The position numbers and the translations under genes are program-made. The notes beneath the pieces were generated by a model, which was not told the DNA's origin, made no database searches, and saw nothing but the letters and a program-made list of their open reading frames with translations. Shown piece after piece: positions 8,475 to 63,581 of a stretch of 64,000 nt of DNA. Each line of letters begins with the position of its first letter. Position 1 is the first letter of the stretch. This DNA comes from Malacoraja senta (lineage: Eukaryota). Where the stretch lies: positions 25,236,001 through 25,300,000 of the forward strand of contig CM075987.1 of NCBI GenBank assembly GCA_038087875.1, written 5' to 3'.

Positions 8475-8580
8475 TTAATTGTGAAAGTCGCCCTTAATGA
8501 GCAAGGACTGCACTTGACCCTCCCTTGAATGAATGGATGTGTTGAATGGGTACCACATGAAGAGGTCTGGCAATAGACTT

Positions 8581-8724
8581 CTTCTTCTTCTTCTTCTTCT
8601 TCTTGCGTATGGCGTGCACAGCCTAAAGTTGTAGGACAACTTGTTCTATTTGATCTTATTTGATTGTGCACGCCAGGTTGATTGCATTCGTCGAAACAGG
8701 GTGAAGGTTGCAATCTTCCACCCC
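8581..8724 (-). mobile_element. Short non-autonomous retroelement family A (HDV-ribozyme head, hairpin body, (GAA)n tail), copy 1
   Basis: 11-bp TSD GCAATAGACTT (8570-8580, 8725-8735); homologous copies at 32738 and 48034; no tRNA A/B boxes. Confidence 0.88.
8680..8724 (-). ncRNA. HDV-like ribozyme remnant (internal ~9-nt deletion)
   Basis: GGGGTGG-AA-GATTGCA-ACC-TTCAC[del]CCT-GT-TTCGA-CGAA-TGCAATC; P2 perfect; G1 abuts the TSD. Confidence 0.65.
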
Positions 8725-9449
8725 GCAATAGACTTGCCTTTAGTTGTTTGTGAGAGCATATTTTAATGCAGGAGAGAAAAAAAAATGTTTTTGTCTTTCC
8801 TTTGTAAAAATAATCTGGCAAATTTGCAGCAGCGATGACTGTAGTTCCCAGATGATCCCGCCATTCCCAAATGCCAGCACTCAGCATGGATATGCAATGT
8901 TTATCCAATTAATGTTGCTTCCTAGCAACTAGTCATGTGTCCTTGTACTGAAACATCTTGCTGAATTACTCCTTAGATATTGTCTCAAACAGGATGATAA
9001 CTTATTGCTATAAATAAAGTAGTGGTATTAAGATCTGCATGGGCAGCCGTTTATCTAAAATGTTTTATTTATTCCTGCAGTGTTTCAAGCGATACAAATT
9101 ACAAATCACTGGACAGAAATTAAAACTGTTCCAACCCATATTTCAGTTTTGAAGGAAAACTTTGAAAATTTCAACATAATATTTCAGACAAATTTCAAAG
9201 ACATGCCGTCTTTTCTAAGAGAAGTTCACAAGTTCAGAAGCGGTTGGAGCAGAATGAGGCCATTCGGCCCATCAAGTCTACTCCGCCATTCAATCATGGC
9301 TGATCTATCTCTCCCGCCTAACCACATTCTCCTGCCTTCTCTCCATAACCCCTGACACCCGTACTAATCAAGAATCTACCCATCTCTGCCTTAAAGGTAT
9401 CCATCGACTTGGCCTCCACAGCCTTCTGTGGCAATGAATTCCACAGATT

Positions 9450-9950
9450 CATAGAAACATAGAAACATAGAAAATAGGCGTAGGAGTAGACCATTCGGCC
9501 CCTTCGAGCCAGCACCGCCATTCAATATGATCATGGTTTTTGCACATATCCCTTGATTCCATCAGCCCTAAGAGCTTTATCTAACTCTCTCTTGAAAACA
9601 TCCAGTGAGTTGGCCTCCCCTATGGCAGAGAATTCCACAGATTCACAACTCTCTGGGTGAAAATGGCCTCCCCCTTATTCTTAAACTGTGACCCCTGGTT
9701 CTGGACTCCCCTAACATCGGGACCATTTTTTCCTGCATCTAGCCTGTCCATTCCCTTAATAATTTTATATGTTTCTATAAGATCCCCTCTCATCCTCCTA
9801 AATTCCAGTGAATATAAGCCCAGTCGATCCATTCTTTCATCATATGTCAGTCCCGCCATCCCAGGAATTAACCCGGTGAACCTACGCTGCACTCTTTCAA
9901 TAGCAAGAACGTCCTTCCACAAATTAGGAGACCAAAATTGCACACAATAC
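9450..9950 (-). mobile_element. CR1/HER1 LINE 3' fragment ((TTTCTATG)n tail)
   Basis: [46 protein letters not shown]. Confidence 0.9.
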
Positions 9951-11127
9951 CTTCACCACCATCTGAAACTGTTTTTGTGTTTTATTTAGCAAGAGCAGAT
10001 CCTCGATCTGCAACTTGATTTGCAATGCCAGCTCTGACAAGACAGGCTAGACTTCAAACGCCTGGGGGATTTTGACCTGAGCTCACCTCAAAGAAATACT
10101 TTGACAACCACACTGCAGGCTGAACCATCTGTCCAAAAGTTTGAACGTTTGTGAACATGCCTGACAGAAAAACAATTTGAAAATTATCAAATGTTCATTT
10201 AAAAAAAATTCAAGGCACTTCAGCTGCTCAAAGACATTCAGGGGGAATTAAAGACGCAAAGCAAAGAAAGACACAAAATGCTGGAGTAACTCAGTGGGCC
10301 AGACAGCATCTCTGGAGAGAAGGAATGGATGACGTTTCGGGTCGAGTCCCTTCTTCAGACCGGGAGATATAGACGGTGATATAGAGAGAAATAGAACAAA
10401 TGAATGAAAGATATGCAAAAAAGTAACGATGATAAAGGAAACACGCAATGGTTAGTTGTGGGCCCGGCGGCGATAGTGGAGAGGTCGTTGCGGCGGTCGA
10501 AGTTGGCGCCGGCTGACGGACGAGGACGGACCACGTGGAAGTGAGGACGTCGCTGCCGTGGGAAGGAACAAAGGAGGACCCATCGTGGGGGGACCGTCGT
10601 GAGGGAGGGGGCGGGGGAACAAAGGGGGAACAAGCGCGGGGGGGTGGGGTATTTTGTAACTTTCTAAACGCCCTTTATGGGTGACTATATGCATACCTTG
10701 GGTATACAAGCAAAGAATTTCACTGTGACTTCATTACAATTGTGTACTCAATTCAATTTTCCGGAGATGCTGCCTGACACGCTGAGTTGCCCCAGCATTT
10801 TGAGTCTATCGTAAATGTATTTCTTCTCACTTCGGGAAATCTTGTACTTCCTGTGAATGACTATGTGACCTAACACTTGCACAAACCTGGGATAGCCCGT
10901 TTTCTGGTGCGTAATGGCAGCGTTAGGTAATTAATGTCCTGGTGATTCCTGTTGCTGCTATATCCTCATGCTGCATCTAATAGACGAATCACGCCCATGC
11001 AGGCAATATATTACAATCCACAACCCCAGTGGATTAATTTTCTTGAGGTAAAGACTTAGATATGAATCCAGTGTGGGAGGTCCAAGTCAAACAGCGCCAA
11101 ATTGCAGAAATAGATATTTAATAAGTC

Positions 11128-11781
11128 TGTGTAGGAAGGAACTGCAGATGCTGGCTTACACCGAAGATAGACACAAAATTTTGGAGTAACTCAGCAGGAC
11201 AGGCAGCATCTCTGGAGAGAAGGAATGGGTGATGTTTCGGGTCGAGACCCTTCTTCAGACTGAGAGTCAGGGGAGAGGTAGACTGAGAGATATGGAACGG
11301 TAATGTGTGAAAACGAGAGATCAAAGGAGGAGGAAGATCATGGAAAATGTAGGTCATTGTTAGCTCGGGGAAGTTGACAACGAGGCTTATAAATATAATA
11401 TTTAATCAGGAGGACAGCCAAAATCAGAGGTAACTCTGCGGGACAGGCAGCATCTCTGGATAGGAGGAATGGGTGACATTTCGGGTCGAGACCCTTCTTC
11501 AGACTGATGTCGGGGGGGGGGGGGGGGGGAAGGGAGAAACATAGATAAGGACGTGTGAGGTGTGAAAGCAGGACAAAGGGAATGGAGATCAAGGAAGCTG
11601 TAGAATAGATCATTGTTAGCGGGGAGAAGGTAACAATAAAGCAAACAGAGAAAATATGGTCGGAGACAGTCAGACTGGTCGGAGAACTGGGAAGGGGGAG
11701 GGATGGAGAGAGAGGGAAAGCAAGGGCTACTTGAAGTTAGAGAAATCAATATTCATACCACTGGGGTGTAAACTGCCCAAG
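11128..11781 (-). mobile_element. Penelope-like element 3' fragment with tandem pseudo-LTRs
   Basis: Minus strand encodes LGSLHPSGMNIDFSNFK* (GIY-YIG C-terminus as at 38396-38980), followed by two pLTR copies each with CTGAAGA..GAAA motif. Confidence 0.85.
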
Positions 11782-12165
11782 TGTCCGTGAATGGTGGAAA
11801 TTGCATATTATGTATCTGTACACCATGGATGGTTCGATTGTAATCATGTATTGTCTTTCCACTGACAGATTAGCACTCAACCAAAACTTTTCACTGTACC
11901 TAGGTACACGTGCCAATAAACCAAACTAAACTAAATATGAAGTAGAAACAAACTGCTAACTCTAAGTACTCAGTTGATCTATAAGCCTGTGTGGAAAACC
12001 CATGTTAACATTGTAGACCGCTGACCTTGAAAGTTCATCCATTTCAAACAAACTATCTTTCTCTTCCCCAATATTCACTCCTTGTTTGCCACCTGGCTAT
12101 AATAGAAATAATGTACCGAGGTATGTTCGTGCGCAAGCCCATAACTCTCTGAACGTGACACATGT

Positions 12166-12476
12166 GCGGCACGGTGACACAGCGGTAGAGTTGCTGCCTT
12201 ACTGCGCTTGCAGTGGCGGAGAACCGGGTTCGATCCCAACTACAGAGTTTGCACGTTCTCCCCTTGACCTGCGTGGGTTTTCTCCAAGATCTTCGTTTTC
12301 CTCCCACACTCCAAAGACGTACAGGATTGTAGGTTAATTGGCTTGGTATACTTGGTATAAGTGTAAATTGTCCCTGGTGTGTGTAGGGTAGGTTTAATGT
12401 GCGGGGGTCGCTGGTCGGCGTGGACTCGGTGGGCCGAAGGGCCTATTATCGCGCTGTATCTGTAAACTAAACTGAA
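12166..12476 (+). mobile_element. HE1 SINE
   Basis: tRNA head, V-domain, tail ...GTATCTGTAAACTAAAC. Confidence 0.85.
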
Positions 12477-13771: not shown

Positions 13772-13958
13772 TGTTTAAAAAGGAACTGCAGATGCTGGAA
13801 AATCGAAGGTAGACAAAAATGCTGGAGAAACTCAGCGGGTGAGGCAGCATCTATGGAGCGAAGGAAATAGGCAACGTTTCGGGCCGAAACGTCGCCTATT
13901 TCCTTCGCTCCATAGATGCTGCCTCACCCGCTGAGTTTCTCCAGCATTTTTGTCTACC
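13772..13958. mobile_element. Fold-back (palindromic) Penelope pLTR mini-insertion
   Basis: ~75-bp near-perfect inverted arms 13808-13958 centred on GTTTCGGGCCGAAAC; 14-bp TSD ATAAAATAATAGTA (13758-13771, 13959-13972). Confidence 0.88.
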
Positions 13959-26640: not shown

Positions 26641-27538
26641 TCTTATGATATAGATTGTCAGGCTTTCCTCATGGATGTGCTTTGCCTGACAATACACTTC
26701 AATCTGTGCCGGATGAGATCTGCAGATAGCAAAGTGATCATGGTAGAATTCTTGAAGGTAGACAATAAAGGCATATCTATCTATCTATCTAAATGCTGGA
26801 GAAACTCAGCGGGTGAGGCAGCATCTATGGAGCATAGGAATAGGTGACGTTTCGGGTCGAGACCCTTCTTCAGACTTCTCGACCCGAAACGTCACCTATT
26901 TCCTCCGCTCCATAGATGCTGCCTCACCCGCTGAGTTTCTCCAGCATTTTTGTCCACCTTCGATTATTCCACCATCTGCAGTTCTTTCTTAAACATGGTA
27001 GAATTCTTAGTTTAATTAATTGCCACGTGTGCCCAGGTGCAGTGAAATGCTTTTTGTTGCGCGCTAACCAGTCAGTGGAAAGACTATATCTAATTACAAT
27101 CGAGCTGTCCACAGTGTACATGTACATTATAAAGGGAATAATGTTTAGTGCAAATGCAAACTGGAGAAACTCCCATGGTGATCAGAGGAATACCTTACAG
27201 AGCGAACTGGAGGTCAAGATCAAATGCAGATGGGGGTAGAAATGCTACGATGCATTAGATGTGCTGTAGGAAGTATTATATCGGGATGTATCTCAGCTTG
27301 GTTCGGGAACAGCTCCATCCAAGACCACAAGAAATTGCAGAGAATCGTGGACGCTGCCCAGACCATCACGCAAATCAACTGCCATTGACACCTCTCGCTG
27401 CCTCAGCAAGGCCAGCAGCATAATCAAGGACAAGTTGCACCCTGGCCACCCCCTCTTACCCCTCGGGCAAAGGGTATAGATGTGTGAAAACGCACACCTC
27501 CAGATTCAGGGGAAGTTTCTTTCCAGCTGTTATCGGGC

Positions 27539-27589
27539 AGGGTCAAAGAAAGAGCATTCACGTCGCGGCCCTGTCTCCACCAATCTTTC
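27539..27589 (+). ncRNA. Minimal HDV/CPEB3-like ribozyme
   Basis: P1 AGGGTC/GGCCCT, P2 GAAAGA/TCTTTC, P3 GCA/CGC (one mismatch), L3 TTCACGT, J1/4 GT, 5-nt P4 loop, J4/2 CCAA. Confidence 0.7.
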
Positions 27590-27711
27590 CACCACCACGC
27601 ACAGGAACCACAAGAAGGGACAAGACAAGCAACATTGTACGCAGATGCCGAGAAGTGTGTTCAGCTCTGGCTGAACAACTTCTAATCTTGTGTGTGGTCT
27701 CGATAAGAAGA
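27539..27711 (+). mobile_element. Short non-autonomous retroelement family B (HDV-ribozyme head, hairpins, (GAA)n tail)
   Basis: TSD AGCTGTTATC (27525-27534, 27712-27721); interrupts a Rex-like repeat; ends GATAAGAAGA. Confidence 0.8.
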
Positions 27712-27842
27712 AGCTGTTATCAGCCAACTGAATCACCCTACCAAAAACCAGAGAGCAGTCCTGAACTATTATCTATGTCATTGGTGACCCTTGGACTACC
27801 TTTGACCAGACTTTGTGGGTTTACCTTGCACTAAACATTCTT

Positions 27843-28028
27843 TGTTCAAGAAGGAACTGCAGACGCTGGAGAATCGAAGGTAGACAAAATTGCTGGAGAC
27901 ACTCAGCTGGTGCGGCAGCATCTATGGAGCGAAGGAAATAGGCAACGTCTCGGGCCGAAACGTTGCCTATTTCCTTCGCTCCATAGACGCCGCCGCACCC
28001 GCTGAGTTTCTCCAGCAATTTTGTCTAC
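27843..28028. mobile_element. Fold-back Penelope pLTR mini-insertion
   Basis: Inverted arms GTAGACAAAATTGCTGGAG...CTCCAGCAATTTTGTCTAC centred on GTCTCGGGCCGAAAC. Confidence 0.82.
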
Positions 28029-28891
28029 ACAGAGTAAACAAGATGGGCCGAATGGCCTGATTCTACTCCTATCTCTTCTGGTCCTATGATTCCTTCTCGC
28101 CAGTAATGCTGCGTTTCCCACTGGGTAGTCAGGATCGAACCCAGGTCTCTGGCGCTGTGAGGCAGCAACTCTACCGCTGCGCCACCCTGCCCCCCACCCC
28201 CCCCATAATGGAATGGAACGAGCAGATGCAATGGGATTGAGAACAATCTCCAAATACAATGACAGAGTCTTGAATTTAGTGCGATCTTGAAAATAAGCGA
28301 ATATTTATTTCAGTGCGAAACTACACAGATAAAGGCTTGCCAGAAACAAGATATACTTTCATAAATATTTCGCATGATTAATCAATGCCTGCCAGGTAAA
28401 TAACACCAGACGATAAAAGCATTCAATTTTATTTTAATGAACAGGCTTTCAAAATGATGCATAATTTTCCGAGGGATTGACAGTATACCACAACAAAACC
28501 TCCTAATATTCCCACCCACTGCTACCTTGCTGGGATCAGACACTAAATACCAGCCTGCCTACTTCACCTTGAAGCAATCTCAACAAATATACGGTGAACA
28601 CAATCTAATTTACAGCCACATTTTCTGCTAATGTTGCCATTTTTCTAGCCGTTTTCTTGATTTCGCGGAGATTTATGCTTTCAATGAATATTTCACTCTC
28701 CAGGCTTCACACACACACACACACAAAATCGCATCGGATTTAATTCCCTGATCTCATTCACTTTTGCATCCCTTCTGCACTGATACCCAATTTCAAAATA
28801 AGTAGATGTGACAGAACAAATGCATAGCACAGGCGACCATTGTCCCAACCTATAGGCAGAAGCAGAATTGCCAGGTTTCCTCATAAGTCCA

Positions 28892-29450
28892 GAGACCACA
28901 CCTGGAGTATTGTGTGCAGTTTTGGTCCCCTAATTTGAGGAAGGACATTCTTGCTATTGAGGGAGTGCAGCGTAGGTTTACAAGGTTAATTCCCGGATGG
29001 CGGGACTGTCCTATGCTGAGAGAATGAAGCAGCTGGGCTTGTACACTCTGGAATTTAGAAGGATGAGAGGGTATCTCATTGAAACATATAAGATTGTTAA
29101 GGGCTTGGACACGCTAGAGGCAGGAAACATGTTCCCGATGTTGGGGGGGATCCAGAACCAGGGGCCACAGTTTAAGAATAAAGAGTAAGCCATTTAGAAC
29201 GGAGACAAGGAAACACTTTTTCTCACAGAGAGTTGTGAGTCTGTGGAATTCTCTGCCTCAGAGGGCGGTGGAGGCAGGTTCTCTGGATACTTTCAAGAGA
29301 GAGCTAGATAGGGCTCTTAAAAATAGCGGAGTCAGGGGATATGGGGAGAAGGCAGGAACGGGGTACTGATTGGGGATGATCAGCCATGATCACATTGAAT
29401 GGCGGTGCTGGCTAGAAGGGCCGAATGGCCTACTCCTGCACCTATTGTCA
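28892..29450 (+). mobile_element. CR1/HER1 LINE 3' fragment
   Basis: [18 protein letters not shown]..; LGLYTLEFRRMRG.LIETYK; CTATTGT tail. Confidence 0.92.
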
Positions 29451-31106: not shown

Positions 31107-31396
31107 TTCCCCTCCACAGCCCATCTTCCCAGGATGGAGCCAGCCTTCCTGATATGTTTGTTAATCCTAATCCTTTTTCACAGGATTATACATTCCTAGT
31201 CTTTGGATGTTGTCAATCGTTGCTGCTCACTGTAAGATGTTTAAAGAATGGCTGCAAGTGACAGGACGAGTCAGACTGGTTGGTGGATGATTTATGGTCA
31301 ATGACTGAACATTCATGAGCCTTTAATTTAAGCCATTGACCTGACTTTATAACGCCACACATTTAACCAGACTGTCACACAAACCAACCTCCCTCC

Positions 31397-32067
31397 CTTT
31401 AAATACCTGGGAGTCCACATCTCAGAGGATCTGACATGGACATCACACGCTGCCGCACTGGTGAGTAAGGCAAGGCAGTGCCTTTACCACCTCAGGCAAT
31501 TGAGGAAATTCAGAGTGTCGCTGAGGATCCTCCAGTGCTTCTGCTCAGCGGCTGTGGAAAGCATCTTGTCCGCCAACATCACAATCTGGTTTGGGAACTG
31601 CTCTGCCCTGGACAAGAAGGCTCTGCAGAGAGTAGTGCGTTCGGCCGAACGCACTATGGGAACTGCACTCGCCCCCCAGCAGGAACTATACACCAGGAGG
31701 TGCAGATCCAGAGCCAGCAACATTATGGGGGACCCCTACCACCCCAGCAACGGACTGTTCCAGCTGCTACGGTCAGGCAAACGCCTCCGCTGTCACGCTG
31801 TGAAAACAGAGAGGATGAGAAGGAGTTTCTTCCCAGTGGCCATTCGGACTGTAAACCCCTATCTCACCAGGGACTAACTTACTGTACCAATTTACTGCTG
31901 TGTGGTGTCTTTCTAAAATTGATGTTTTTTCTTTTTTTCCCCACAAATATGTAATTACTGATCCTGTTCCATTCTGTTTTGTAGTTTTTTGCACAATCCA
32001 CAGGCATTGCCACTTTTCATTTCACTGCACATCTCGTATGCGTATGTGACGAATAAACTTGACTTGT
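31397..32067 (+). mobile_element. Rex1/Babar LINE 3' fragment (RT thumb to C-terminus)
   Basis: FKYLGVHISEDLTW..H....SKARQ.LY.LR.LRKF...VESIL...IT.WFGN...KKALQRVV..AE..; RRSFFP.AIR; AATAAAC(TTGAC)n tail. Confidence 0.9.
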
Positions 32068-32737
32068 CGACTCCATTTACACCTGACGCTGCCTCGGCAA
32101 GGCCAGCAGCATAATCAAGGACCAGTCGCACCCCTGGCCACTCCCTCTTCTCCCCTCTCCCATCGGGCAAAAGGTACAGAAGTGTGAAAACGCACAGCTC
32201 CAGATTCAGGGACAGTTTCTTCCCAGCTGTTATCAGGCAACTGAACCATCCTACCAACAACCGGAGAGCAGTCCTGAACTTCTATCTACCTCATTGGAGA
32301 CCCTCGGACTATCTTTGAATGAACTTTACTGACTGAACCTTGCACGAAACGTGATTCCCTTTATCGTAAATCTGTCCCAAATGCAGGTAAGTATTGACAG
32401 CAAAAGGAAGAGAGAAACTGGATTCAAAGGCAAGGATGTGGTTATTTTTTTTTTAGATGAGTTTAGTTTATTGTCACATGTACCGAGGTACAATGAAAAG
32501 CTTTTGTTGTGTCTTAACTAACCAGTCTGCGGAAAGACAATATGTGATTTCAATCGAGCCATCCACAGTGTACAGATACACGATACAGGGAATAACGTGA
32601 ATAATGTTTAGTGCAAGATAAAGTCCAGTAGAGTCAGATCAAAGATAGTCTGAAGGTCTCCAATGAGGTAGATAGTAGATCAGGCCTGCTATGTATTGTT
32701 GGTAGGATGGTTCAGTTGCCTGATAACAGCTGGGAAA

Positions 32738-32863
32738 GGGGGTCGGAGATTGCAACCTTCACCTGTTTCGACTAATGCAATCAACCCGACGTGCACAAAC
32801 AAGATCAAATACAACAAGTTGACCTACAACTTTAGTCTGTGCATGCCAGACGCAAGAAGAAGA
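32738..32863 (+). mobile_element. Short retroelement family A, copy 2
   Basis: TSD AGCTGGGAAA (32728-32737, 32864-32873); GGGGGTC-GGA-GATTGCA-ACC-TTCAC[del]CT-GT-TTCGA-CTAA-TGCAATC head; (GAA)n tail. Confidence 0.85.
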
Positions 32864-34520
32864 AGCTGGGAAACATAGTCCCTGTGCCACCCTGGAAGTT
32901 CCCGCTTCCAATATGTTGTAAAATTCAATTATTTCTGGTAGCATCAACCACGTGCCAGCAAACATCAGAGGTGGTCGATCTATTTTATTTTCCTCCACAT
33001 TTTCTCCCCAATGCCTTGGTTTCAATCGAAATCGCCAACCTAGTAAAAGAGCAATCAACTCCCATTGAGAGTGTTGGAACTAGATAGCACACAAGTCATT
33101 CTACTGAAAGTGCATTATTGCCCAAGCTTGCCATTCCTTAAGCCGCGGTAAACTCAATGGTGTGAAATTTGAGTAAAAGATTATAGTAAAGATTAAGGAT
33201 TTTTTTCTTCATGTCGGGCCAAGTATTTGTCATACATGGTGGAGTGAACCTTTTGTTTATCTGTTACTGTTTTAAAGTTGGTTGCAAGGACACATGCAAC
33301 TACCGCCCCTTTCCCTCAGTTGCCCTGTAGCCCTCTCCCCTCCCTTCTCACGTTACATTATTGCTCATTTTTCCGTGCCCATTTCAAAATTCAGGTAAGC
33401 AAGCAATCTCTTTCATTTCCCTTGTTACAGTGGTTGATGCTACCAGTGAGAATTTGAATGTTACCACATGCTGGAAGCAGGAACTTCCAAGGCAGCTCCA
33501 GGCAGGTTGCGTGGGATAGTGCTGGAGTACAGGTGTGGAATCTGTGGGCCGAAGGGCCTGTTTCCTCGTTGTATCTCTAAACTAAACCCGGACAATTTTG
33601 CAAGTTGGAACTGGCACCACCCAACAATATATTTAAATAAAAACAGAGGCCAACGTGTTATTTAACCAGGCCCCTTCACTCAAACCTAGTCAAATAGCTC
33701 TGCAAAGATGCAATGATACTGCTGTGAATCAGGGCAGATGATGACTGCAGTCTTGCAACAGTCAGTAAACCCAACCCCGACAGTCTTCCCAATCACTCGT
33801 TTGTATGTAGGAGTTAGTCTGATGAAGGGGCTCGACCCCAAACGTCACCCATTCCTTCTCTCCAGAGATGCTGCCTGCCCCGCTGAGTTACTCCAGCCGT
33901 GGGTTTAAACATAAGTTTGGTGTTCGTAACCTGTGAACAGGGGAGTAACTAGCATGGAACTCAGTCAAAGGATGGCTGTTTTACAGGCTACCAAACGCGG
34001 GAATTTGGAGCGTGGGAGAATTTTTAAGGATCTTAAAGTTTAACCTGGTTCTAAAATTGAGGGTATTAGTTAGGACTAACCTAGATTTTTTTTTTCTGGA
34101 ATGCCAGAATTCAAGGGGAGACCCAATAGAAGTATGCAAAATTATAGGAACATAGATAGGTTCTGACTGTATGTCCTTTTCCCCCCCCAGGAAATGTCAA
34201 AGACTAGAGGGCACAGCTTTGAAGGGGAGAGGGGCCAAGTTTAAAAGTGATGTGCAGGGCAAGATTTTTACCATAAGTGAAAATAGATACAATTGTGAGA
34301 CCTCGGTGAAATAAATCAAAGTCTATTAGAAATCAGGGAGGAGATTGCAGAGGCTTTGATTTTTAATCCACCCTTGCTAGGGGGGTTGATGCCAAGATTG
34401 GAGGACCACTTGTGTTGTTATGGAGGAAACAATACAACAGTAATTTCAGGCCTGTTAGTTTAATTTCTTTTCAGGGCATGTTAAATAAGGAGAATACATT
34501 CTATCGAGCAATGTTAACTA

Positions 34521-38093: not shown

Positions 38094-38417
38094 TTTTCCT
38101 TTTGCATTATCGTTCCCAAGCGAGAAAAAGGAGGCTGATATCCCGAAAATGCAGCGGATATCCTGGATTCAGTTTACATTAATGAAAAAATAATTTAAAC
38201 ATCTGGAACTTTGGCACCATCCCACTGCAGACTGCCATAGTGCAGCTAAAGAGAAGCAAGTTCCACAGAAGAGAAATTTGTGAAGAAAATGTTCAAATTT
38301 TCAAACACAGGCAAATTTGATGATTTTCGATGCGATTGACTCGCAGTTAAGGGCAGGGGATTGATGCCAGGGACGGCAAACACTGTGGCAGAAATGTGTT
38401 CAGAAACCAACGCACCC

Positions 38418-39190
38418 ACCTCCGTCAGTTTCGCCACCTCCAACGTGACCCCACCACTCGCCACATCTTCCCATCTCCCCCCATGTCTGCCTTCCGCAAA
38501 GACCGCTCCCTCCGCAACTCCCTTGTCAATTCTTCTATTCCCTCCCATACCACCCCCTCCCCTGGTACTTTCCCTTGCAACCGCAAGAGATGCAACACTT
38601 GTCCCTTCACCTCCCCCCTCCACTCCATTCAAGGACCCAAGCAGTCGTTCCAGGTGCGACAGAGGTTCACCTGCATCTCCTCCAACCTCATCTATTGCAT
38701 CCACTGCTCTAGATGCCAGCTGATCTACATCGGTGAGACCAAGCGGAGGCTTGGCGATCGTTTCGCCGAACACCTCCGGTCGGTCCGCAATAACCAACCT
38801 GAACTCCCGGTGGCTCAGCACTTCAACTCCCCCTCCCATTCCGTATCTGACCTCTCTATCCTGGGTCTCCTCCATGGCCACAGCGAGCAACACCGTAAAT
38901 TGGAGGAAATGCACCTCATATTCCGCTTGGGCAGTCTACATCCTGGGGGCTTGAACATTGAATTCTCCCAATTCTGCTAGCCCTTGCTGTCCCCTCCCCT
39001 TCATCAGCCATCTGGTTGTCTCCTCCCCTCCCCCAGCCCTCGGGCTCCTCCTCCGCCTTTTTCCTTTTTTCCTTTCTTCTCCCCACCCCCTATCAGTCTG
39101 AAGAAGGGTTTCAGCCCGAAACGTTACCTATTTCCTTCGCTGCATAGATGCTGCTGGACCCGCTGAGTTTCTCCAGCATTTTTGTGCACC
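38418..39190 (+). mobile_element. Penelope-like element (Neptune-type) 5'-truncated copy: Cys-rich linker + GIY-YIG endonuclease + pLTR
   Basis: Open frame ...C.RKRC.TC...FTC.SSNLIYCI.C..C.L.YIGET.R.L..RF.EH...VA.HF...LE...I..LGSL.P.GLN*; pLTR with CTGAAGA (39098-39104)...GAAACGTT follows. Confidence 0.93.
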
Positions 39191-46410: not shown

Positions 46411-48033
46411 TGTAAACAAGAGGTCTCCGTCTTTAGGGTGGTCCAGTGGTGCAGTGGTAGAGCTGCCGCCTTACAGCGCCAGGGACTCGGGTTCCATCCT
46501 ATCTGTGGGTGCTGTCTGTACAGAGTTTGTACGTTCTCCCCGTGGCCTGTGTGGGTTTTCTCCGGGTGCTCCGGGTTCCTGTCTCGCTCCAAAGACGTGC
46601 GGGTTTATCGTTTAATTGGCTTCAGTAAAATTGGAAATTGTGTGTGGGATAGTGTTAGTGTGCGGGGATTGCTGGTCAGCGTGGGTCTATAAAATCCCCT
46701 CTCAATTCCAGTGAATACAAACCCATTCTTTCACCATGTGTCTGTCCCGCCATCCCGGGAGTTAACCTGGTGAACCTACGCTGTACTCCCTCATCGGGAA
46801 CATGTTTCCTGGCGAGTCCAATCCCTTATTAATCTTATATGTTTCAATAAGATTCCCTCTCATCTGTCTCAATTCCAGAGTATACAAGCCCAGCCGCTCC
46901 ATTCTATCAACATATGACAGTCCCGCCATCCCGGGAATTAACCTGGTGAACCTACGCTGTACTCCCTCAATAGCAAGAATGTCATTCCTCATATTAGGAG
47001 ACCAAAACTGCACACAATATTCCAGGTACTCCAGACTCGCTGGGCCAAAGGGTCTGTTTCCATGCTGTATCTCTAAACTAAACTAATCTTCTGAGAAGGT
47101 TGGAGATCCTGGAGAGCAGAACCTGATTGATAGAGGCAGACCTGGTTCATTCAATTGTTTTTCCAACTGATTTTATTCAAGCCAACCTTTGCTCAGATTG
47201 TCTCATATCCATTTCAGAACCATAACTGCGCGGACCTTTTGTAATTTAGAGCAATTGTACATGTTTAAATTGAATGTATCAAACAAATTGATAACATTTA
47301 ATCAGAATGACTCAGTTGGCAGAGCGCTAGCCTCGGTTAGATTGTAAAACTGACGCTATCCTCGCAGAATCTGAAATAGCCTTCTGAGCATCATGCAATA
47401 GATGATGTGAATTGACAAAGGACCTGAAGGTATACGAAACATGCATATGTATTCTACCAGCAATGTATCAGTTCGCATTCCCTCTACTGTACTTTACAAT
47501 GTATGTTCCCTTCAATCAAATGCAGGGGGAAATAAATAACCTTTACACATGTAGGAATGGGAAATACAGAAAGGAGGCAAATGTCTGATTGCAGACATAA
47601 AATGCTGGAGTATCTCAGGGGGACAGGCGGCATCTCTGGAGAGAAGGAATGGGTAACGTTTCGAGCCGAGACCCATCTGACCCGAAGACCCAAACAAGGG
47701 TCTCGACCCGAAACGTCACCCATTCCTTCTGTCCAGAGGTGCTGCCTGTCCCGCTGAGTTACTCCAGCTTTTTGTGTCTATCTTCAGTTTGGACCAGCAT
47801 CTGCAGTTCCTTCCTACACAAATGACTGATTGAGGTGAGTGCACTTTTAAACGTTGATTCAGTGAATCAATTCACCTCCTGTTTCAATGACGAGCAAGAA
47901 CTGTGTCCAACTCGATGCAAAGTCCTTTTGCAACAGAGCAATCTAGGTGTGGGAGCAGGGGGTAGAAAACAGAATGTGTAGGAAGGAACTGCAGATGCTG
48001 GTTTACACCGAAGATAGACACAAAATACTGGAG

Positions 48034-48168
48034 CCTTCTTCTTGCGTATGGCGTGCACAGCATAAAGTTGCAGGACAACTTGTTCTATTTGATCTTATTT
48101 GATTGTGCACGCCAGGTTGATTGCATTCGTCGACCACGTGAAGGTTGCAATCTCCCACCCTGGATGTA
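48034..48168 (-). mobile_element. Short retroelement family A, copy 3 (nested in a Penelope pLTR)
   Basis: TSD AAAATACTGGAG (48022-48033, 48169-48180); head AGGGTGG-GA-GATTGCA-ACC-TTCACGT-GGT-C[del]GA-CGAA-TGCAATC. Confidence 0.85.
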
Positions 48169-48669
48169 AAAATACTGGAGTAAGTCAGCGGGACAGGCAG
48201 CATCTCTGGAGAAAAAGAGTGGGTGACGTTATGGTCTCGACCTGAAGCGTCACATATTCCTACTCTCCAGAGATGCTGCCTGTCCCACTGAGTTACTCCA
48301 GCGTTTTGTGTCCAACTTCTGTAGAAAGCGGAGGCCTGTCATGAGAGGCAGCCTGCTCGAGATTTATCATCGCTCATTCCGTGTCTTTGGAGGAATTGGT
48401 TCTCAATCTGTTTACCATAATCAATTGAATTTGTGTTTTGCGCCCTGTTTGAAAGATTATGTATTTGCCAAATGAGTTTTTCATTCTTACGACCGCCAAT
48501 TTTTTTTTTCAAAATCGGATTACGTTTCAAGCACTGTGGAGTAACATGCTTTATCCTTTCAACTAAAACCACCAATTATATGATCAACAAACAAAGCATT
48601 TTCGAAGAGCGCAAGAGACCGCACAAATGCCTGCTCTGAAGGCGATTTGTTTTTCTTCACTTTCAACTA

Positions 48670-52284: not shown

Positions 52285-53085
52285 GCTTAGAGTCATAGAG
52301 TGATACAGTGTGGAAACAGGCTCTTTGGCCCAACTTGCCCACACCGGCCAACATGTCCCGGCTACACTAGCCCCACCTGCCAGCATTTGGTTCATATCCC
52401 TCCAAACCTGTCCTAGCAAATGTACCTGTCTAACTGCTTCTTAACTGTCGGGATAGTCCCTGCCTCAAGGACCTCCCCTGGCAGCTCGTTCCATACACCC
52501 ACCCCCCTTTGTGTGAAAAAGTAACCCCTCATATTCCTATTAAATCTTTTCCCCTTCAACTTAAACCCATGTCCTCTGGTCCTCGATTTGCCTGGTCTGG
52601 GCAAGAGACTGTGCATCCACCCGATCTATTCCTCTCATGATTTTATACACCTCTATAAGATCACCCCTCATTCTCCTGCTCTCCAAGGAATAGAGTCCCA
52701 GCCTGCTCAACCTCTCCCTATAGTTCAGTCCCTCTAGACCTGGCAACATCCTCGTAAATCTTCTGTGTACCCTCTCCAGCTTGACAACATCTTTCCTCTA
52801 ACACCGCGCGCGCCCAGAACTGAACACAATACTCTAAATGTGGTAGACAAAAGTGCTGGAGAAACTCAGCGGGTGCGGCAGCATCTATGGAGCGAAGGGA
52901 ATAGGCAATGTTTCGGCCCGAACGTTGCCTATTTCCTTCGCTCCATAGATGCTGCCGCACCCGCTGAGTTTCTCCAGCACTTTTGTCTACCTTCGATTTT
53001 CCAGCATCTGCAGTTCCTGTTTCAACACTCTAAATGTGGCCTCACCAACGTCTTATTCAACTGCAACATGACCTCCCAACTTCTA
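52285..53085 (-). mobile_element. CR1/HER1 LINE 3' fragment hosting a fold-back pLTR
   Basis: [37 protein letters not shown]; palindromic pLTR insert 52844-53026 with 13-bp TSD ACTCTAAATGTGG. Confidence 0.9.
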
Positions 53086-58895: not shown

Positions 58896-59380
58896 AGCAC
58901 TCTCCAGTCCAGTCCAGAGTCCGCAGTAGGATTATCTTTGAAGGCTAGATACAAAGTTATTATTCCACTATGTTGGATTTTTCGTGCTGATGACAAGGTT
59001 GGACTTCAGGCAGATGAGTCCGTTTCCCAGGCCTCGCGGATACTCAAACTCCGCAGGGACAGACCCTCGTGCATAACCATGGCACACAGAAGCCTAGTGA
59101 ATCTTTCACCTTACTGAATAACTCCGTAAGCCTCAGTACTTTCACAATCGGAGGATGTGGCAAGAATTTCCACAGCCAGCTCAATGCTTCTGAAGTTTCA
59201 TCTCTGTTGCAATTCAGCCAAAGAAGTTATTCATAGAAATGTCTCTCTGCCGCAAGATATAATGACTAGATACTGCAGTCTGCTTTTAGGAATAATGGTT
59301 GAGGGATGAACGTTGGCCTGGAGCCTAAGATATCTCTGATGCTTTGTTTTGAGTACCATTGAATCATTTTCTACCACCAA

Positions 59381-59452
59381 GAGAGCAGACACAAGACTCC
59401 AGCTCAACCTTTCATCCAAAGGTCAGCATCTCAGACAGAGCAGCACATCCCC
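59381..59452 (-). mobile_element. Deu-domain SINE fragment
   Basis: GAGAGCAGAC..CTCAACCTTTCATCCAAAGGTCAGCATCTCAGACAGAGCAGCAC resembles the reverse complement of the Deu core. Confidence 0.55.
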
Positions 59453-59566
59453 CTGTCAATGGTAATCGAGGCATAAGATATTCATGTTAATTTGTAGCAG
59501 GCAATGTTCACTCATGTTAGCGTGGGGCTATTTCGGGTTGTTGTGTGAAGGGGGCTGGTAAACCAA

Positions 59567-60310
59567 CCTCCCTTCCACTGACTCCATCTACACCTCACGC
59601 TGCCTCGGCAAGGCCAGCAGCATAATCAAGGATGAGTCGCACCCCGGCCACTCCTTCTTCTCCCCTCTCCCATCAGGCAAACGGTACAGAAGTGTGAAAA
59701 CGCACACCTCCAGATTCTGGGACAGTTCTTCCCAGCTGTTATCAGGCAACTGAATCATCCTACCACAACTAGAGAGCAGTCCTAAACTACTATCTACCTG
59801 TAGTTAGGTCTAGACCCTTGGACTATCTTTGATCGGGCTTCATCTTGCACTAAATGTTATTCATGTTATTCCCCTTATCATGCATGTATATATCATGGGT
59901 GGCATGGTGGTGCAGCTGTAGAATTGCTGCCTCACAGGTTCGAACCTGACTACGGGTGCTGCCTGTACGGAGTTTGTACGTTCTCCCCGTGATCTTAGTT
60001 GGTTTTCTCTGGGATCTCCAGTTTCCTCCCATGCTCCAAGGGTTTGTAGGTTAATTGGCTTGGTATAATTGTAAATGATCCCTAGTGCGCAGAATAGTGC
60101 TAGTGTGCGGGGATCGCTGGTCGGCACTGACTCGGTGGGCCGAAGGGCCTGGTTCCGCACTGTATCTCTCAACTAAACTAAACTAAATGCACCTGTACAC
60201 TGTGGATGGCTCAATTGTAATCATGTACCGTCTTTCCGCTGACTGGTTAACACGCAACGAAAGCTTATTTACGCGATCTCGGTACACATGACAATAAACT
60301 AAACTAAAAC
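59567..60310 (+). mobile_element. Rex1/Babar-like 3' fragment with nested HE1 SINE (59897-60187)
   Basis: NLPSTDSIYTSRCLGKASSIIKD.SHPGH..FSPLPSGKRYRS motif; 3' UTR ending GACAATAAACTAAAC. Confidence 0.8.
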
Positions 60311-60875
60311 TTAATTAATAATTTCAATGGAAAGTCATGCATATACCACGTGCATACACACTAATGACGTGTCAATAAGCCTGCTAGTTAAGTGGGCGCC
60401 TTGCATTATATCTGAATTTGTAGATACGGAGAACCACAGGTGGTCAGATAACCAGCGGGGCAAAGCCAATTACGTCTGTAGTGTTTCACAATGATGGGTG
60501 AAATAGCTGAACACTAAGATAGTTTGCAGCTCTATTATAGACAATGCCACCAACTGGCTTCAAGGTGGATCCCACATTTGATTAAATCACCGTCTTACAG
60601 TAGAGTCAGGAAGACTGCAATAATTAATGGTTAGACTTAATGAAGCCTCAATCAGTTTCTATATTTGTGTTAATCCCTCCTCCTTGCAACTTCTGACAAA
60701 ATTCTCGTCGCTGGTGTTCACACAGGTTCAAAGCAAAAATCTTCTGGCACAAAACTTCCTTCCCACCTCGGCAGATGCAACATTAATATCTGCTTTGATC
60801 TCACTCGCTGCTTAGGTGTTGGGAGGTTTGTGCCAGGTTGTGACTCGTTGCATTTTTACGCATTAACCTGATTTT

Positions 60876-61150
60876 TAGACTTGCAGACTTTAGACTGTGG
60901 AGATACAACGTGGAAACAGGCCCTTCGGCCCACCGGGTCCATGCCGACCAGGAATCACCAAGCCAGTTAACCTACAAACATGCACGTCTTTGGAGTGTGG
61001 GAGGAAACCGGAGCACCCGGAGAAAACCAACGCAGGTCACGGGGGGGGGGAACGTAAAACTCCGTACAGACAGCAGCCGTGGTCAGGATCAAACCCAGGT
61101 CTCTTGCATTGTCAGGCAGCAACTCTACCGCTGCGCCACCGTGCTGCCCC
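60876..61150 (-). mobile_element. HE1 SINE
   Basis: Reverse-complement match, (TTTAGAC)n tail. Confidence 0.82.
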
Positions 61151-63395
61151 AGTGATATAAGGCACAGATATTCTCTGGCACAATGCAACTCAAGGCACTT
61201 CTTGAAGCAACGTTATCCGTGACTTAGTTATGGCCACTGATCAAATCTCTACACATTCACAACCCTCTTCCAGAACTAGCAACACAATTTTCCACATGGA
61301 TAGAAGCTCTTGTGTTCATAAGTTCAAAGGTGATAGGAGAAGAATTTAGGGCATTCGGCCCATCAAGTCTCCTCCGCCCCTCAATCATGGCTGATCTATC
61401 TCTCCCTCCTAACCCCATTCTCATGCCTTCTCCCCATAACCCCTGACACCCGTACTAATCAAGAATCTATCTATCTCTGGCTTAAAAATACCCATTGACT
61501 TGGCCTCCACAGCCTTCTGTGGCAATGAATTTCTCCTCATCTCCTTCCTGAAGCAACATCCATTAATTCTGAGGTCCTAGACTCTCCCACTAGTGGAAAC
61601 ATCCTCTCCACATCCACTCTATCCATTGGTATTGGTGAAGCAAAGACAACCAGGAAGCAATGCATGGATAACATCTATGATTGCTGCTATCAATAAGTGA
61701 GTCGAATAAAGTACAGACCTCTGCTGCAAGATTGTGCTTTCACTTAAGCCCGGTCTTACAAAATAATGATAGATTGGATGTGGGGAGGATGTTTCCAATA
61801 GTGGGAGAGTCTGGGACCAGATGGTATAGCCTCAGGACAAAAGGATGTACCTTCAGAATGGAGATGAGGAGGGTGGTTTCTTGAACCAGAGGGTGGTGAA
61901 TCTGTGGAATTCATTGCCACAGATGATGGAGGAGGCTTAGTCATTGGGTATTTTTAAAGCAGAGATTGAAAGGTTCTTGATTAGTAAGGGCATGAAAGGT
62001 TGTGGGGAGAATGGGGTTGAGAAGGGAAATGAGATCAGCCGTGATAGAATGGAGGAGCAGACTCGATGGGCCAAATGGCCTAATTCCACTCCTATTTCTT
62101 CAAGATAAAGTTGAAGGCTTGCAAGTTCATTCCTTCAGGAATATGTCAAGGTTCCCCTTGTTCAAGGTACTGTAGGTTCTTCCACAAGACTTTGGGGTGA
62201 AAGGGTGGATGGCCATTTCTGAAGGATGGCTCTTGGACATGCCTGTTGCCTGTTTCCATATGGCTTTGTCAGTGTAGTGCAAACCTGCCTGAACGCAGCC
62301 CAATGTGAATAACTACCAGGGCATGAGATGGTGGAAGTAAGCTAGGACCTTCTGTGTCTGTTGCTCGTCCACGAGTGATGATAAATACATGCTGTGTGTG
62401 TTTGTGTATCGTTCCCCCATAAATCCGGCAAAATTGACATATTCCTCGCAGGTAATGCAAAATCATCAGAGGAATAGATCGGGCAGATGCACAGAGTCTC
62501 TTGCCCAGAGTATGGGGATCGAGCACTGGAGGACATACAGTAGGTTTAAGCTGAGGGGGGAAAGATTTAATAGAAACATAGAAAATAGGTGCAGGAGGAG
62601 GCCATTCGGCCCTTCGAGCCAGCACCGCCATTCATTGATCGTCCCCTATCAATAACCCGTGCCTGCCTTCTCCCCATACCCCTTGACTCCACTAGCCCCT
62701 AGAGCTCTATCTAACTCTCTCGTAAATCCATCCAGTGACTTGGCCTCCACTGCCCTCTGTGGCAGGGAATTCCATAAATTCACAACTCTCTGGGTGAAAA
62801 CGTTTTTTCTCACCTCAGTCTTAAATGACCTCCCCTTTATTCTAAGACTGTGGCCCCTGGAACCTGAGGGGTAACATTTTCACACACAGGGTGGTGGGAG
62901 TATGGAACAAGGAGGTAGTTGAGGCAGAGACTTTGCCTCAACCACAGGAGGTAGTTGAGGCAGAGACTTTCCCAGCATTTAAGAAACAGTTAGACAGGTG
63001 CATGGATAGAACAGGTTTGGAGGGATATGGACCAAACGCGGACAGGTTGGACGAGTGCAGCTGGGACATGTTGGCCGGTGTGGGCAAGTTGGGCCGAAGG
63101 GCCTGTTTCCACGCTGTATAACTCTATGACTCTAATTCAAGTACTTGTCTAATACTTCTTAAATGTGTGTGAGAATCTCTGCCTCCACAAATGTTCCCCT
63201 CAGGCAGAACATTCCAACTACTAACCCCCCACTGGGTGAAAAAAGATCTTCCTCAGATCACCTCTAAACATTTCATCTTTTGCCACAAACCTTTAACCGG
63301 ACTTTACTGGTTTTACACTAAACTTTATTCCCTTTATCAAGTATCTGCACACTGTGGATGGTTCGATTGTAAGCATGTGCAGTATAGTCTTTTCA

Positions 63396-63581
63396 CTTCT
63401 TCTTCTTTTTGTGTCCAAATGTTGACCTCGCTGTCATCGTCCGTCCTGAAAAGGACACGAGCTTCCGGCGACAATCAGTGGGAGCCATCACTTGTCGCAA
63501 TAGATGATGGTGGTAGCAGAATTAGCTCGGGATACTTCCAGTTTCCAGCCCCGTGACGTGGACGCTTCTGCTATGGGGCCC
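63396..63581 (-). mobile_element. Short non-autonomous retroelement family C (CPEB3-like ribozyme head, hairpins, (GAA)n tail)
   Basis: Interrupts a Rex-type 3' UTR (GTATAGTCTTT...GCACGCAACAAAAAGCTTTTCA); tail AAAAAGAAGAAGAAG; no clear TSD. Confidence 0.75.
63514..63581 (-). ncRNA. HDV/CPEB3-like self-cleaving ribozyme
   Basis: GGGCCCC-A-TAGCAGAA-GCG-TCCACGT-CAC-GGGGCT-GG-AAACTGGAAGTATCCCGAG-CTAA-TTCTGCTA: 8-bp P2 perfect, P1.1 CC/GG, J4/2 CTAA. Confidence 0.8.

What the first reader, a model, noticed from the sequence alone, without database searches (positions are those of the whole stretch)
8570..63581. A system of ribozyme-headed, (GAA)n-tailed SINE-like retroelements: three families, five copies in 64 kb
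Seen: five short non-coding inserts (8581-8724 -, 27539-27711 +, 32738-32863 +, 48034-48168 -, 63396-63581 -) share one architecture: HDV-like nested double-pseudoknot head (P1, P2, P3, L3 = TYCACGT, J4/2 = CNAA), one or more stem-loops, then a (GAA)n tail; four have 10-12-bp TSDs; none has tRNA/7SL/5S Pol III boxes. In copy 8581 the predicted cleavage-site G1 lies directly against the TSD. Established: HDV-like ribozymes process the 5' ends of R2 and RTE retrotransposon RNAs, and R2-derived short internally deleted elements keep the ribozyme. Inference: these are non-autonomous elements that need no promoter of their own, cut themselves out of read-through host transcripts and borrow RTE-X machinery. 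I do not know of a description in cartilaginous fishes, but could not search.
Basis: partly seen in the sequence, partly recalled or inferred. Interest (0 to 1): 0.88.

Follow-up and report, generated by a model that had tools for sequence, protein, structure and literature searches.

The report
Ribozyme-headed short retroelements with RTE partner
Five short mobile-DNA copies in this window belong to families found in thousands of copies in the genome. They begin exactly at the cut site of a self-cutting RNA fold and are probably copied by a LINE with the same kind of head; the principle is known, but the fold's close likeness to the mammalian CPEB3 ribozyme may show where that ribozyme came from.

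Summary
The five inserts are real and form three families: A (c1, c3, c4), B (c2) and C (c5). All three are multi-copy in the 1.94-Gb genome. The intact family A head core alone has 2,848 exact 30-mer matches.

In genome copies the heads fold as canonical HDV-like ribozymes: P1 with a G1·U pair, P2, P3, a 7-nt L3 and a CNAA J4/2. Across 14 heads, 99.1% of pair cells pair and 13 of 18 pairs carry compensatory changes. Target-site duplications (TSDs) abut G1 in 38 of the 46 independent copies that have a TSD.

Two divergent RTE-type LINE lineages carry the same kind of ribozyme at their exact 5' end. The one whose 3' end I saw ends in (GAA)n.

- None of the five window copies keeps a perfect ribozyme. 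The three A copies have deletions in P3/P1.
- The c5 element starts at 63580, not 63581.
- Catalysis, read-through transcription and the RTE-X subclade are untested.

The principle is already known from RTE, R2 SIDEs and L1Tc/NARTc.

The new point is that the Rfam mammalian CPEB3-ribozyme model matches these heads at up to 64 bits. The similarity extends into P1, P2 and P4, although that ribozyme is reported as absent outside mammals.

The parts
8581..8724 (-). Family A copy c1. Head 8680-8724, with G1 at 8724. Structured body. (AAG)8 tail 8581-8604. The ribozyme is disabled by the 'del1' deletion (TTCAC|CCTG).
8725..8735 (-). 5' copy of the c1 TSD (AAGTCTATTGC), directly against G1. The 3' copy lies at 8570-8580.
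27539..27713 (+). Family B copy c2. Head 27539-27590: A at the G1 position, and P3 has an A·C mismatch. Tail about 27705-27713. TSD AGCTGTTATC at 27525-27534 and 27712-27721. Four extra bases (gggc) at 27535-27538.
32738..32865 (+). Family A copy c3, older (88% to c1). It has a del2-type deletion in the head. TSD AGCTGGGAAA at 32728-32737 and 32864-32873.
48034..48160 (-). Family A copy c4. The head starts at 48160. P3 and L3 are intact, but the P1 3' strand is deleted. TSD CTCCAGTATTTT at 48169-48180 and 48022-48033. Eight extra bases at 48161-48168.
63396..63580 (-). Family C copy c5. Head 63515-63580, with G1 at 63580. It scores 32.1 bits on RF00622 (threshold 35). One P3 mismatch. It lacks about 10 nt near the 3' end that most other copies have. 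Tail 63396-63410. No TSD found.
7905..8250 (-). 5'-truncated 3' end of the RTE-type LINE ('LINE1'). It holds the C-terminal coding part, a stop codon, an extremely short 3' UTR and a (GAA)n tail. Flanked by tgtgtgt.

Best explanation
The five inserts are decayed copies of three families of short, non-coding, non-autonomous non-LTR retroelements.

Each family's RNA begins with a complete HDV-like (CPEB3-type) self-cleaving ribozyme and ends in a short 3' motif plus (GAA)n.

Proposed cycle:
1. A copy is transcribed as part of a longer RNA (inferred).
2. The ribozyme cuts immediately 5' of G1, so the released RNA starts at G1 and keeps the whole ribozyme. This is inferred from the fold and from the 5' ends; it was not assayed.
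3. An RTE-type LINE protein (APE endonuclease plus reverse transcriptase) supplied in trans primes on the (GAA)n end at a nicked target and copies the RNA to its 5' end. This gives 9-13-bp target-site duplications that abut G1. The TSDs and the LINE are shown; the pairing of element and LINE is inferred.

The LINEs of this genome use the same device. Two divergent lineages start exactly with such a ribozyme. In one, the ORF's first ATG lies inside the ribozyme's J4/2-P2 strand.
For: Copy number.
- First-look candidates, all lower bounds: 2019 (C), 739 (A), 664 (B).
- Exact 30-mers: 2,848 for the intact A head core and 2,771 for the A body. Reversed-pattern controls gave 0.

Fold.
- 9 of 11 representative heads parse as P1 (G1·U)-P2-P3-L3(7 nt)-P3'-P1'-J1/4-P4-CNAA-P2'. 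Eight have no mismatch and one has a single mismatch. The two that fail are degenerate copies.
- On an alignment of 14 heads that I chose for intactness, out of about 100 loci held, 99.1% of pair cells are standard pairs. Column shuffles give 70.9% and slid partners give 44.5-50.2%.
- 13 of 18 pairs change on both sides. The covariation score is 0.779 against 0.255.
- The first P1.1 pair also covaries. L3 position 3 with J1/4 position 1 is C/G in five families and U/A in LINE1 (read).

5' ends.
- Of 73 independent sites, 46 have a TSD of >=8 nt. In 38 of those the TSD ends directly at G1. By family: A 13 of 14, B 9 of 15, C 16 of 17.
- In contigs of 4 other runs the family C boundary falls at 63580 in 18, 100, 162 and 163 contigs. 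The neighbouring positions show far fewer: 63579 in 0, 9, 16 and 17; 63581 in 0, 0, 15 and 15.

Partner LINE.
- The window holds a LINE 3' end with a (GAA)n tail, with 1309 genome candidates.
- Another copy has RVT_1 (E 1.1e-26) and Exo_endo_phos_2 (E 4.3e-9).
- Its relatives are about 900-1050-aa proteins with both domains, most on 3.1-3.9-kb contigs.
- 2 of 3 fetched 5' regions begin with a perfect HDV-like fold. The third is 5'-truncated.
- The LINE1 head 31-mer occurs 13 times. Five of these lie 261-272 nt upstream of an endonuclease match on the same strand.
- The ORF is open from an ATG inside the ribozyme.
- A second LINE lineage shares 28% identity over the N-terminus (E 7e-10). It also starts with a ribozyme, 29 nt before its ATG.
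- Family A and LINE1 share the last 19 nt, 17 of 19 identical. None of 200 shuffles scored as high.

Rfam.
- The only ribozyme family hit is CPEB3_ribozyme RF00622.
- Genome-wide, 39 of 59 scored candidates are over threshold. The 14 control genomes gave 0 hits.
Against: - No cleavage assay was possible, and no RNA data were usable. No RNA run is on record and only contigs were available, which cannot show RNA starts.
- None of the five window copies has a perfect ribozyme.
- 20 and 23 genome copies carry the same two head deletions, yet still start at G1 with TSDs. So an intact ribozyme in the copy itself is not needed for that 5' end. This needs the extra assumption that the deletions arise during or after copying.
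- The SINE-like heads are not identical to either LINE head. Families B and C share with LINE1 only the (GAA)n repeat. The link between each family and a particular LINE is therefore weak.
- Family A and LINE1 heads get no Rfam hit at E<=1.
- The 14 heads used for covariation were hand-picked, and the structure was derived from them.
Confidence: 0.8

Rival explanations
1. The head is not (or not only) a ribozyme. It acts as an internal promoter that starts transcription at G1, or as a folded 5' handle bound by the LINE protein. In that case the fixed 5' end reflects a start site, not a cut.
For: - In L1Tc/NARTc the same 77 nt are both an internal promoter and an HDV-like ribozyme (PMC3383444, abstract in the listing).
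- The R2 protein binds a pseudoknot within its ribozyme (PMC6765202, passage).
- Copies with head deletions that should kill catalysis still start at G1.
Against: - The covariation preserves exactly the catalytic architecture: G1·U, CNAA with C, the P1.1 pair and a 7-nt L3. A promoter would not need this.
- No Pol III boxes or tRNA-like parts were found.
- Deleted heads are rare: 43 against 2,848 exact matches.
Confidence: 0.12
2. The short elements are not an independent SINE-like class. They are internally deleted LINE copies (the SIDE type). Each keeps the head and tail of its own parent LINE subfamily.
For: - R2 SIDEs arose this way (PMC6765202, passage).
- Family A keeps the last 19 nt of LINE1.
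- The genome holds further ribozyme-headed lineages. Parents with matching heads may therefore exist.
Against: - Neither LINE head found matches the A, B or C head in P1, P2 or P4.
- The bodies show no similarity to the LINE1 3' region beyond the last 19 nt (A) or an 11-mer (C; 6 of 200 shuffles score as high).
- I compared only the last 346 nt of LINE1. I did not compare any LINE 5' UTR or the LINE2 3' end, so this is open.
Confidence: 0.3
3. The HDV-like fold is a chance reading of GC-rich hairpins in ordinary repeats.
For: Three of the five window copies do not actually contain the full fold.
Against: - Rfam E-values reach 1.1e-15.
- The 14 control genomes gave no hit.
- Covariation far exceeds both shuffled and slid controls.
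- 5' ends sit at G1.
Confidence: 0.01

Closest known systems
HDV-like ribozymes at the 5' ends of non-LTR retrotransposons (RTE, R2, R4/Dong, L1Tc, Baggins). Sources: Ruminski et al. 2011 and Eickbush & Eickbush 2010, as cited in PMC3774820 and PMC6765202 (passages read). Ruminski 2011 itself is not held.
   Same: The ribozyme sits at the exact 5' end of the element, with cleavage at the 5' junction. Promoter-less elements are thought to be released from co-transcripts. The ORF starts at or just after the ribozyme.
   Different: Here the host is a 1.94-Gb eukaryote that is not an insect or a trypanosome. The ribozymes are of the CPEB3 sequence type. The device is also carried by abundant short non-coding families.
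R2 SIDEs (short internally deleted elements; Eickbush & Eickbush 2012, seen only as cited in PMC6765202) and NARTc of Trypanosoma cruzi (PMC3383444, PMC3185411; abstracts in search listings)
   Same: These are non-autonomous and ORF-less. They keep an HDV-like ribozyme head and borrow the LINE's proteins.
   Different: SIDEs sit in rDNA and are plain deletion derivatives. NARTc shares its first 77 nt with L1Tc. Here the elements are dispersed, with TSDs and thousands of copies. There are at least three families, and their heads differ from the LINE heads found by compensatory changes.
Mammalian CPEB3 ribozyme (Rfam RF00622)
   Same: - Same fold.
- The model scores are 61-64 bits on LINE2 heads, 59.7 on L098, 39-51 on the four-copy family, and 37.5 on a family C copy. 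The threshold is 35.
- Long identical stretches to the model consensus: AGAAGCGUUCACGUCGCG, CCCUGUCA, UGCGAAU.
- In the four-copy family the P1 and P4 stems also match.
   Different: These are not in a CPEB3 intron. They are multi-copy and mobile. Family A and LINE1 heads do not reach the model, and family B reaches 28.5 bits. Families A and B have a minimal P4.
Hammerhead SINE-like elements of schistosomes, retrozymes, and twister-variant-headed Perere-3 (RTE) LINEs (PMC6765202, PMC7761336, PMC8501958; passages read)
   Same: A self-cleaving ribozyme is built into a retroelement and processes its RNA.
   Different: The ribozyme class differs. Those SINE-like elements use Pol III and tandem copies or circular RNAs. 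Here the copies are single and dispersed, with a ribozyme only at the 5' end.

Membership tests
HDV-like self-cleaving ribozyme | Nested double pseudoknot with P1, P2 and P3 (P4 variable), supported by covariation | tested here: met
   9 of 11 representative heads parse.: 99.1% of cells paired, and 13 of 18 pairs carry double changes. In the window copies themselves the fold is damaged.
HDV-like self-cleaving ribozyme | G1·U pair at the cleavage site, a cytosine in J4/2, and P1.1 between L3 and J1/4 | tested here: met
   G·U closes P1 in all 9 parsed heads. J4/2 is CGAA, CCAA or CUAA. The first P1.1 pair is C-G in five families and U-A in LINE1. That these are the defining residues rests on my recall of the family.
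HDV-like self-cleaving ribozyme | Self-cleavage 5' of G1 in Mg2+ | not testable with these tools
   Indirect only: element 5' ends and TSDs lie at G1.
CPEB3 ribozyme, Rfam RF00622 | Score at or above the gathering threshold of 35 bits | tested here: inconclusive
   Met by LINE2 heads (64.2, 63.8, 61.3), L098 (59.7), L099-L104 (39.2-51.4) and family C copy L005 (37.5). Not met by c5 (32.1), family B (28.5; c2 25.1 partial), family A or LINE1, which gave no hit.
CPEB3 ribozyme, Rfam RF00622 | Single-copy location in the CPEB3 intron, conserved in mammals | tested here: not met
   The matches are multi-copy heads of retroelements.
Classical SINE | Head derived from a Pol III gene (tRNA, 7SL, 5S) with an internal promoter | tested here: not met
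   ARAGORN finds 0. No A or B box on the element strand. No such Rfam match on the elements at E<=10.
Classical SINE | 3' end shared with a partner LINE | tested here: inconclusive
   Family A shares the last 19 nt with LINE1 (17 of 19 identical). Families B and C share only (GAA)n with it, and share a 25-nt 3' end with each other. The LINE2 3' end was not fetched.
RTE-clade LINE (criteria from the abstract of PMC2887409) | [quoted passage not shown] | tested here: met
   The stop codon is followed by about 23 nt, including (GAA)n.
RTE-clade LINE | Placement in the RTE or RTE-X clade by RT phylogeny | not tested
   No reference set of classified LINE RTs was at hand. The protein atlas gave only 'reverse transcriptase'.
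R2 SIDE | Internal deletion of a known parent LINE, and insertion in 28S rDNA | tested here: not met
   Insertions are dispersed with varied TSDs. The heads differ from both LINE heads found.

The most novel reading that the evidence does not exclude
The mammalian CPEB3 ribozyme is a domesticated 5' head of this lineage of RTE-type retroelements. An ancient insertion in the CPEB3 intron would have left the head behind, while the mobile lineage persists, and has multiplied to thousands of copies, in this non-mammalian genome.

The heads here would then be the outgroups that the field lacks. [quoted passage not shown]

The likeness goes beyond the catalytic core. It includes the P1, P2 and P4 stems in the four old copies L099-L102, and each copy departs from the model consensus at different positions. 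This argues against pure convergence. Convergence of active-site sequences is, however, documented for R2 ribozymes (PMC3774820, passage).

That the genome is not a mammal was not tested with any tool.
Probability: 0.55. Interest if true: 0.85.

Novelty: new member of a known kind. Interest (0 to 1): 0.66.

Why it matters
1. It shows a vertebrate-sized genome in which self-cleaving ribozymes are a mass-produced genomic feature. There are thousands of heads, each a potential RNA cut site wherever it lands in a transcript. That bears on how such genomes tolerate, or use, ribozymes in introns.

2. It gives a natural series of compact HDV-like ribozymes, 52-85 nt, some with a minimal P4. Built-in covariation makes them useful for structure-function work.

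3. It offers a concrete, testable origin for the CPEB3 ribozyme. That is the one conserved HDV-like ribozyme of mammals, and its ancestry has had no outgroup.

Tried and rejected
- Rfam at gathering thresholds on the window gave 0 matches. The hits appear only at the E-value threshold.
- RNA evidence: no RNA holder is listed. The four runs laid are contigs and cannot show RNA starts.
- A sixth candidate head at 28861-28930 (10.8 bits) is another repeat without P2 or P3. Rejected.
- The protein atlas gave no LINE clade.
- Ruminski et al. 2011 (PMC3308841) is not held. What I say of it comes from citing papers.
- The bacterial promoter/terminator scan is irrelevant to a eukaryote and found nothing.
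- The translation of L097 was in a wrong frame on a disrupted copy. It was not used.
- The earlier-findings look-ups returned nothing on this genome or this kind of element.
- SINE body against the LINE1 3' region: no similarity beyond the extreme 3' end.
- The family C body of the window copy does not fold better than shuffles (z -0.28). Families A and B do (z -3.9 and -3.7).
- Literature: no paper linking CPEB3-type ribozymes to RTE elements, fish or SINE-like elements turned up in the searches. The library lacks most subscription journals, and Repbase and Dfam could not be consulted.
Full report
**The observation**

The five inserts are where the finding says. BLAST within the window groups c1, c3 and c4 as one family, here called A: 93.75% (c1 vs c4), 87.9% (c1 vs c3) and 85.0% (c3 vs c4). 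c2 (family B) and c5 (family C) match only themselves.

All five end in (GAA)n. GAAGAAGAAG occurs 9 times in the window against 0.23 expected. Four have TSDs of 10-12 nt; c5 has none that I could find. c4 has 8 and c2 has 4 extra bases between TSD and head.

No tRNA-like part, Pol III box or 7SL/5S match lies on the elements.

**The families in the genome**

The window is G000:C11:25236001-25300000 of a 1.94-Gb assembly. Each family is multi-copy. First-look candidates number 2019 (C), 739 (A) and 664 (B), all lower bounds, with the 40 scored matches per family at 90-100% identity.

Exact-pattern counts are firmer:

| Pattern | Exact matches |
|---|---|
| Intact family A head core (30-mer) | 2,848 |
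| Family A body (30-mer) | 2,771 |
| Reversed-pattern controls | 0 |

**The fold**

Genome copies show what the decayed window copies only hint at. Natural copies read as follows:

| Copy (family) | P1 | J1/2 | P2 | P3 | L3 | P3' | P1' | J1/4 + P4 | J4/2 | P2' |
|---|---|---|---|---|---|---|---|---|---|---|
| L040 (A) | GGGGUGG | AA | GAUUGCA | ACC | UUCACGU | GGU | CCACCCU | GU UUCGA | CGAA | UGCAAUC |
| L065 (B) | GGGGUC | AA | GGAAAGA | GCG | UUCACGU | CGC | GGCCCU | GU UUCCA | CCAA | UCUUUCC |
| L005 (C) | GGCCCC | A | UAGCAGAA | GCG | UCCACGU | CGC | GGGGCU | GG + 19-nt P4 | CUAA | UUCUGCUA |

Of 11 representative heads, 9 parse as a canonical HDV-like fold, 8 of them without any mismatch. 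The two failures are degenerate old copies.

MAFFT aligned 14 heads almost structurally. I chose these for intactness from about 100 loci. On that alignment:
- 99.1% of pair cells are standard pairs, against 70.9% in shuffles (0 of 500 as high) and 44.5-50.2% with slid partners.
- 13 of 18 pairs change on both sides.

The first P1.1 pair covaries as well, C-G versus U-A (read).

A covariance model built from this alignment, run over the window with filters off, recovers the five elements and nothing else credible.

**State of the window copies**

None is intact.
- c1 and c3 carry deletions that remove the end of L3, the P3 3' strand and most of the P1 3' strand.
- c4 lacks the P1 3' strand.
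- c2 has A at the G1 position and an A·C mismatch in P3.
- c5 has a C·A mismatch in P3.

Genome-wide the two A-head deletions are rare: 20 and 23 exact matches against 2,848 intact. Three of three deleted copies in one window is therefore unexpected, and I cannot explain it.

**Origin of the head deletions**

Both deletions lie between short direct repeats (CAC...CAC). Both occur on both variants of head position 8, A or G. One further deletion is present in 2 of 11 copies of a single duplicated locus (L043, L044 against L040-L042 and L049-L053).

So they look recurrent, and at least sometimes arise at the DNA level after insertion. Deleted copies still start at G1 with TSDs. That fits deletions made during or after copying of a correctly cut RNA, but it also leaves room for a 5' end that does not need the copy's own ribozyme.

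**5' ends**

After removing duplicated sites, 73 independent copies remain.

| Family | Independent sites | With TSD >=8 nt | TSD ends directly at G1 | No TSD | Tail not located |
|---|---|---|---|---|---|
| A | 22 | 14 | 13 | 3 | 5 |
| B | 25 | 15 | 9 | 7 | 3 |
| C | 26 | 17 | 16 | 5 | 4 |
| Total | 73 | 46 | 38 | 15 | 12 |

TSDs often begin with purines that could equally belong to the tail. This suggests priming by microhomology with (GAA)n.

As an independent check, contigs of four other public runs (four coded organisms) hold family C. Their similarity to the window breaks at 63580 in 18, 100, 162 and 163 contigs. At 63579 the counts are 0, 9, 16 and 17; at 63581 they are 0, 0, 15 and 15. 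The same data show paralogues of the flanking repeat without c5. That fits c5 being an insertion.

**The autonomous partner**

Next to c1 lies a 5'-truncated LINE 3' end (7905-8250, minus strand). It has a C-terminal ORF, a stop codon, about 23 nt, then (GAA)n. The genome holds 1309 candidates for it.

- A longer copy (L091) carries RVT_1 and an endonuclease domain. Its endonuclease part is inverted.
- Database relatives are about 900-1050-aa proteins with both domains, most on 3.1-3.9-kb contigs.
- This architecture and the simple-repeat 3' UTR match the description of RTE elements in the abstract of PMC2887409. The subclade was not determined.

Of three fetched 5' regions, two begin with a perfect HDV-like fold and one is 5'-truncated. 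The fold reads: GGAGGAG / CUCCUCU, AAAGACA / UGUCUUU, GCC / GGC, L3 UCUACGC, J4/2 CCAA.

The LINE1 head 31-mer occurs 13 times. Five of these lie 261-272 nt upstream of an endonuclease match on the same strand. The ORF is open from an ATG that lies inside J4/2-P2'.

A second, divergent LINE lineage (LINE2: L095-L097) also starts with a ribozyme, 29 nt before its ATG. Its N-terminus is 28% identical to that of LINE1 (E 7e-10).

Family A shares its last 19 nt with LINE1. Families B and C share a 25-nt 3' end with each other, but only (GAA)n with LINE1.

The bodies of A and B fold into a long closing stem (z -3.9 and -3.7).

**Mechanism**

Shown here:
- the fold and its covariation;
- 5' ends at G1;
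- TSDs;
- LINEs with the same kind of head, and for LINE1 the same tail.

Inferred:
- self-cleavage;
- transcription from outside the element;
- mobilisation by these LINEs.

This is the scheme proposed for RTE, R2, R4 and L1Tc (PMC3774820, PMC6765202, passages read). Non-autonomous riders are known: R2 SIDEs and NARTc. A review notes HDV-like ribozymes in some non-autonomous SINEs. I therefore file the system as a new member of a known kind.

**The CPEB3 connection**

The only Rfam ribozyme family that matches is the mammalian CPEB3 ribozyme, RF00622.

| Target | Score (bits; threshold 35) |
|---|---|
| c5 (window) | 32.1 |
| Family C copy L005 | 37.5 |
| LINE2 heads | 61.3-64.2 |
| L098 | 59.7 |
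| L099-L104 | 39.2-51.4 |

- Genome-wide, 39 of 59 scored candidates pass the threshold.
- The same search finds nothing in 14 control genomes.
- The alignments show identical runs through P2, P3, L3 and P3', and through J4/2.
- In a small old family (4 matches, the query included), the P1 and P4 stems also match.
- One P2 pair in that family differs from the model by a compensatory change.

[quoted passage not shown] My searches found no paper that links it to RTE elements or fish.

Convergence of active-site sequence is documented among R2 ribozymes (PMC3774820). I therefore rate common descent at about 0.55, not higher.

The identity of the host organism was not established with tools.

Noticed in passing
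window 8581-8724, 32738-32865, 48034-48160: All three family A copies in the window carry head deletions. Genome-wide the two common deletion forms have 20 and 23 exact matches, against 2,848 for the intact head core. Possible causes are age, a deletion hot-spot between CAC repeats, or selection against active ribozymes in transcribed DNA. None of these was tested.
   Followed up: partly
L091:3599-4385 (-) joined to L091:4375-5901 (+): In this LINE1 copy the endonuclease part is inverted relative to the RT part. This looks like a 5' inversion of the twin-priming kind.
   Followed up: no
window 27881-28027, 13830-13936, 52865-52969, 26800-26939, 47614-47759: Near-perfect palindromic hairpins of about 100-146 nt recur in the window. 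They hit plant microRNA models (MIR8670, MIR1507, MIR2118) on both strands, below threshold. They are most likely a MITE-like repeat family, not microRNA genes.
   Followed up: no
window 63314-63383 and 63586-63621: c5 sits inside another very high-copy repeat. Contigs of other runs join the two flanks with only 22-36 other letters between them, so these are paralogues without the insert.
   Followed up: partly
window 8290-8500 (-): A tRNA-like SINE-type repeat lies between c1 and the LINE 3' fragment. From memory it resembles elasmobranch SINEs. ARAGORN does not call it.
   Followed up: no
window 38351-38980 (+) and 31353-31877 (+): One ORF has a weak GIY-YIG match (E 6.5e-4, below the cut-off), possibly a Penelope-like element. 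Another ORF has an ALKBH8_N match (E 7.6e-9). In L091 the same domain follows RVT_1 in a 349-aa ORF, which points to another LINE type.
   Followed up: no
L040-L044 and L049-L053: Eleven family A loci, all on small unplaced contigs, share the same flanks and TSD. They represent one insertion inside a unit that was later duplicated, or haplotigs. They were counted once.
   Followed up: partly
heads of families B and C, L098, L099 and L100: An ACCAC-rich stretch follows directly after the P2 3' strand in several otherwise different families. Its meaning is unknown.
   Followed up: no
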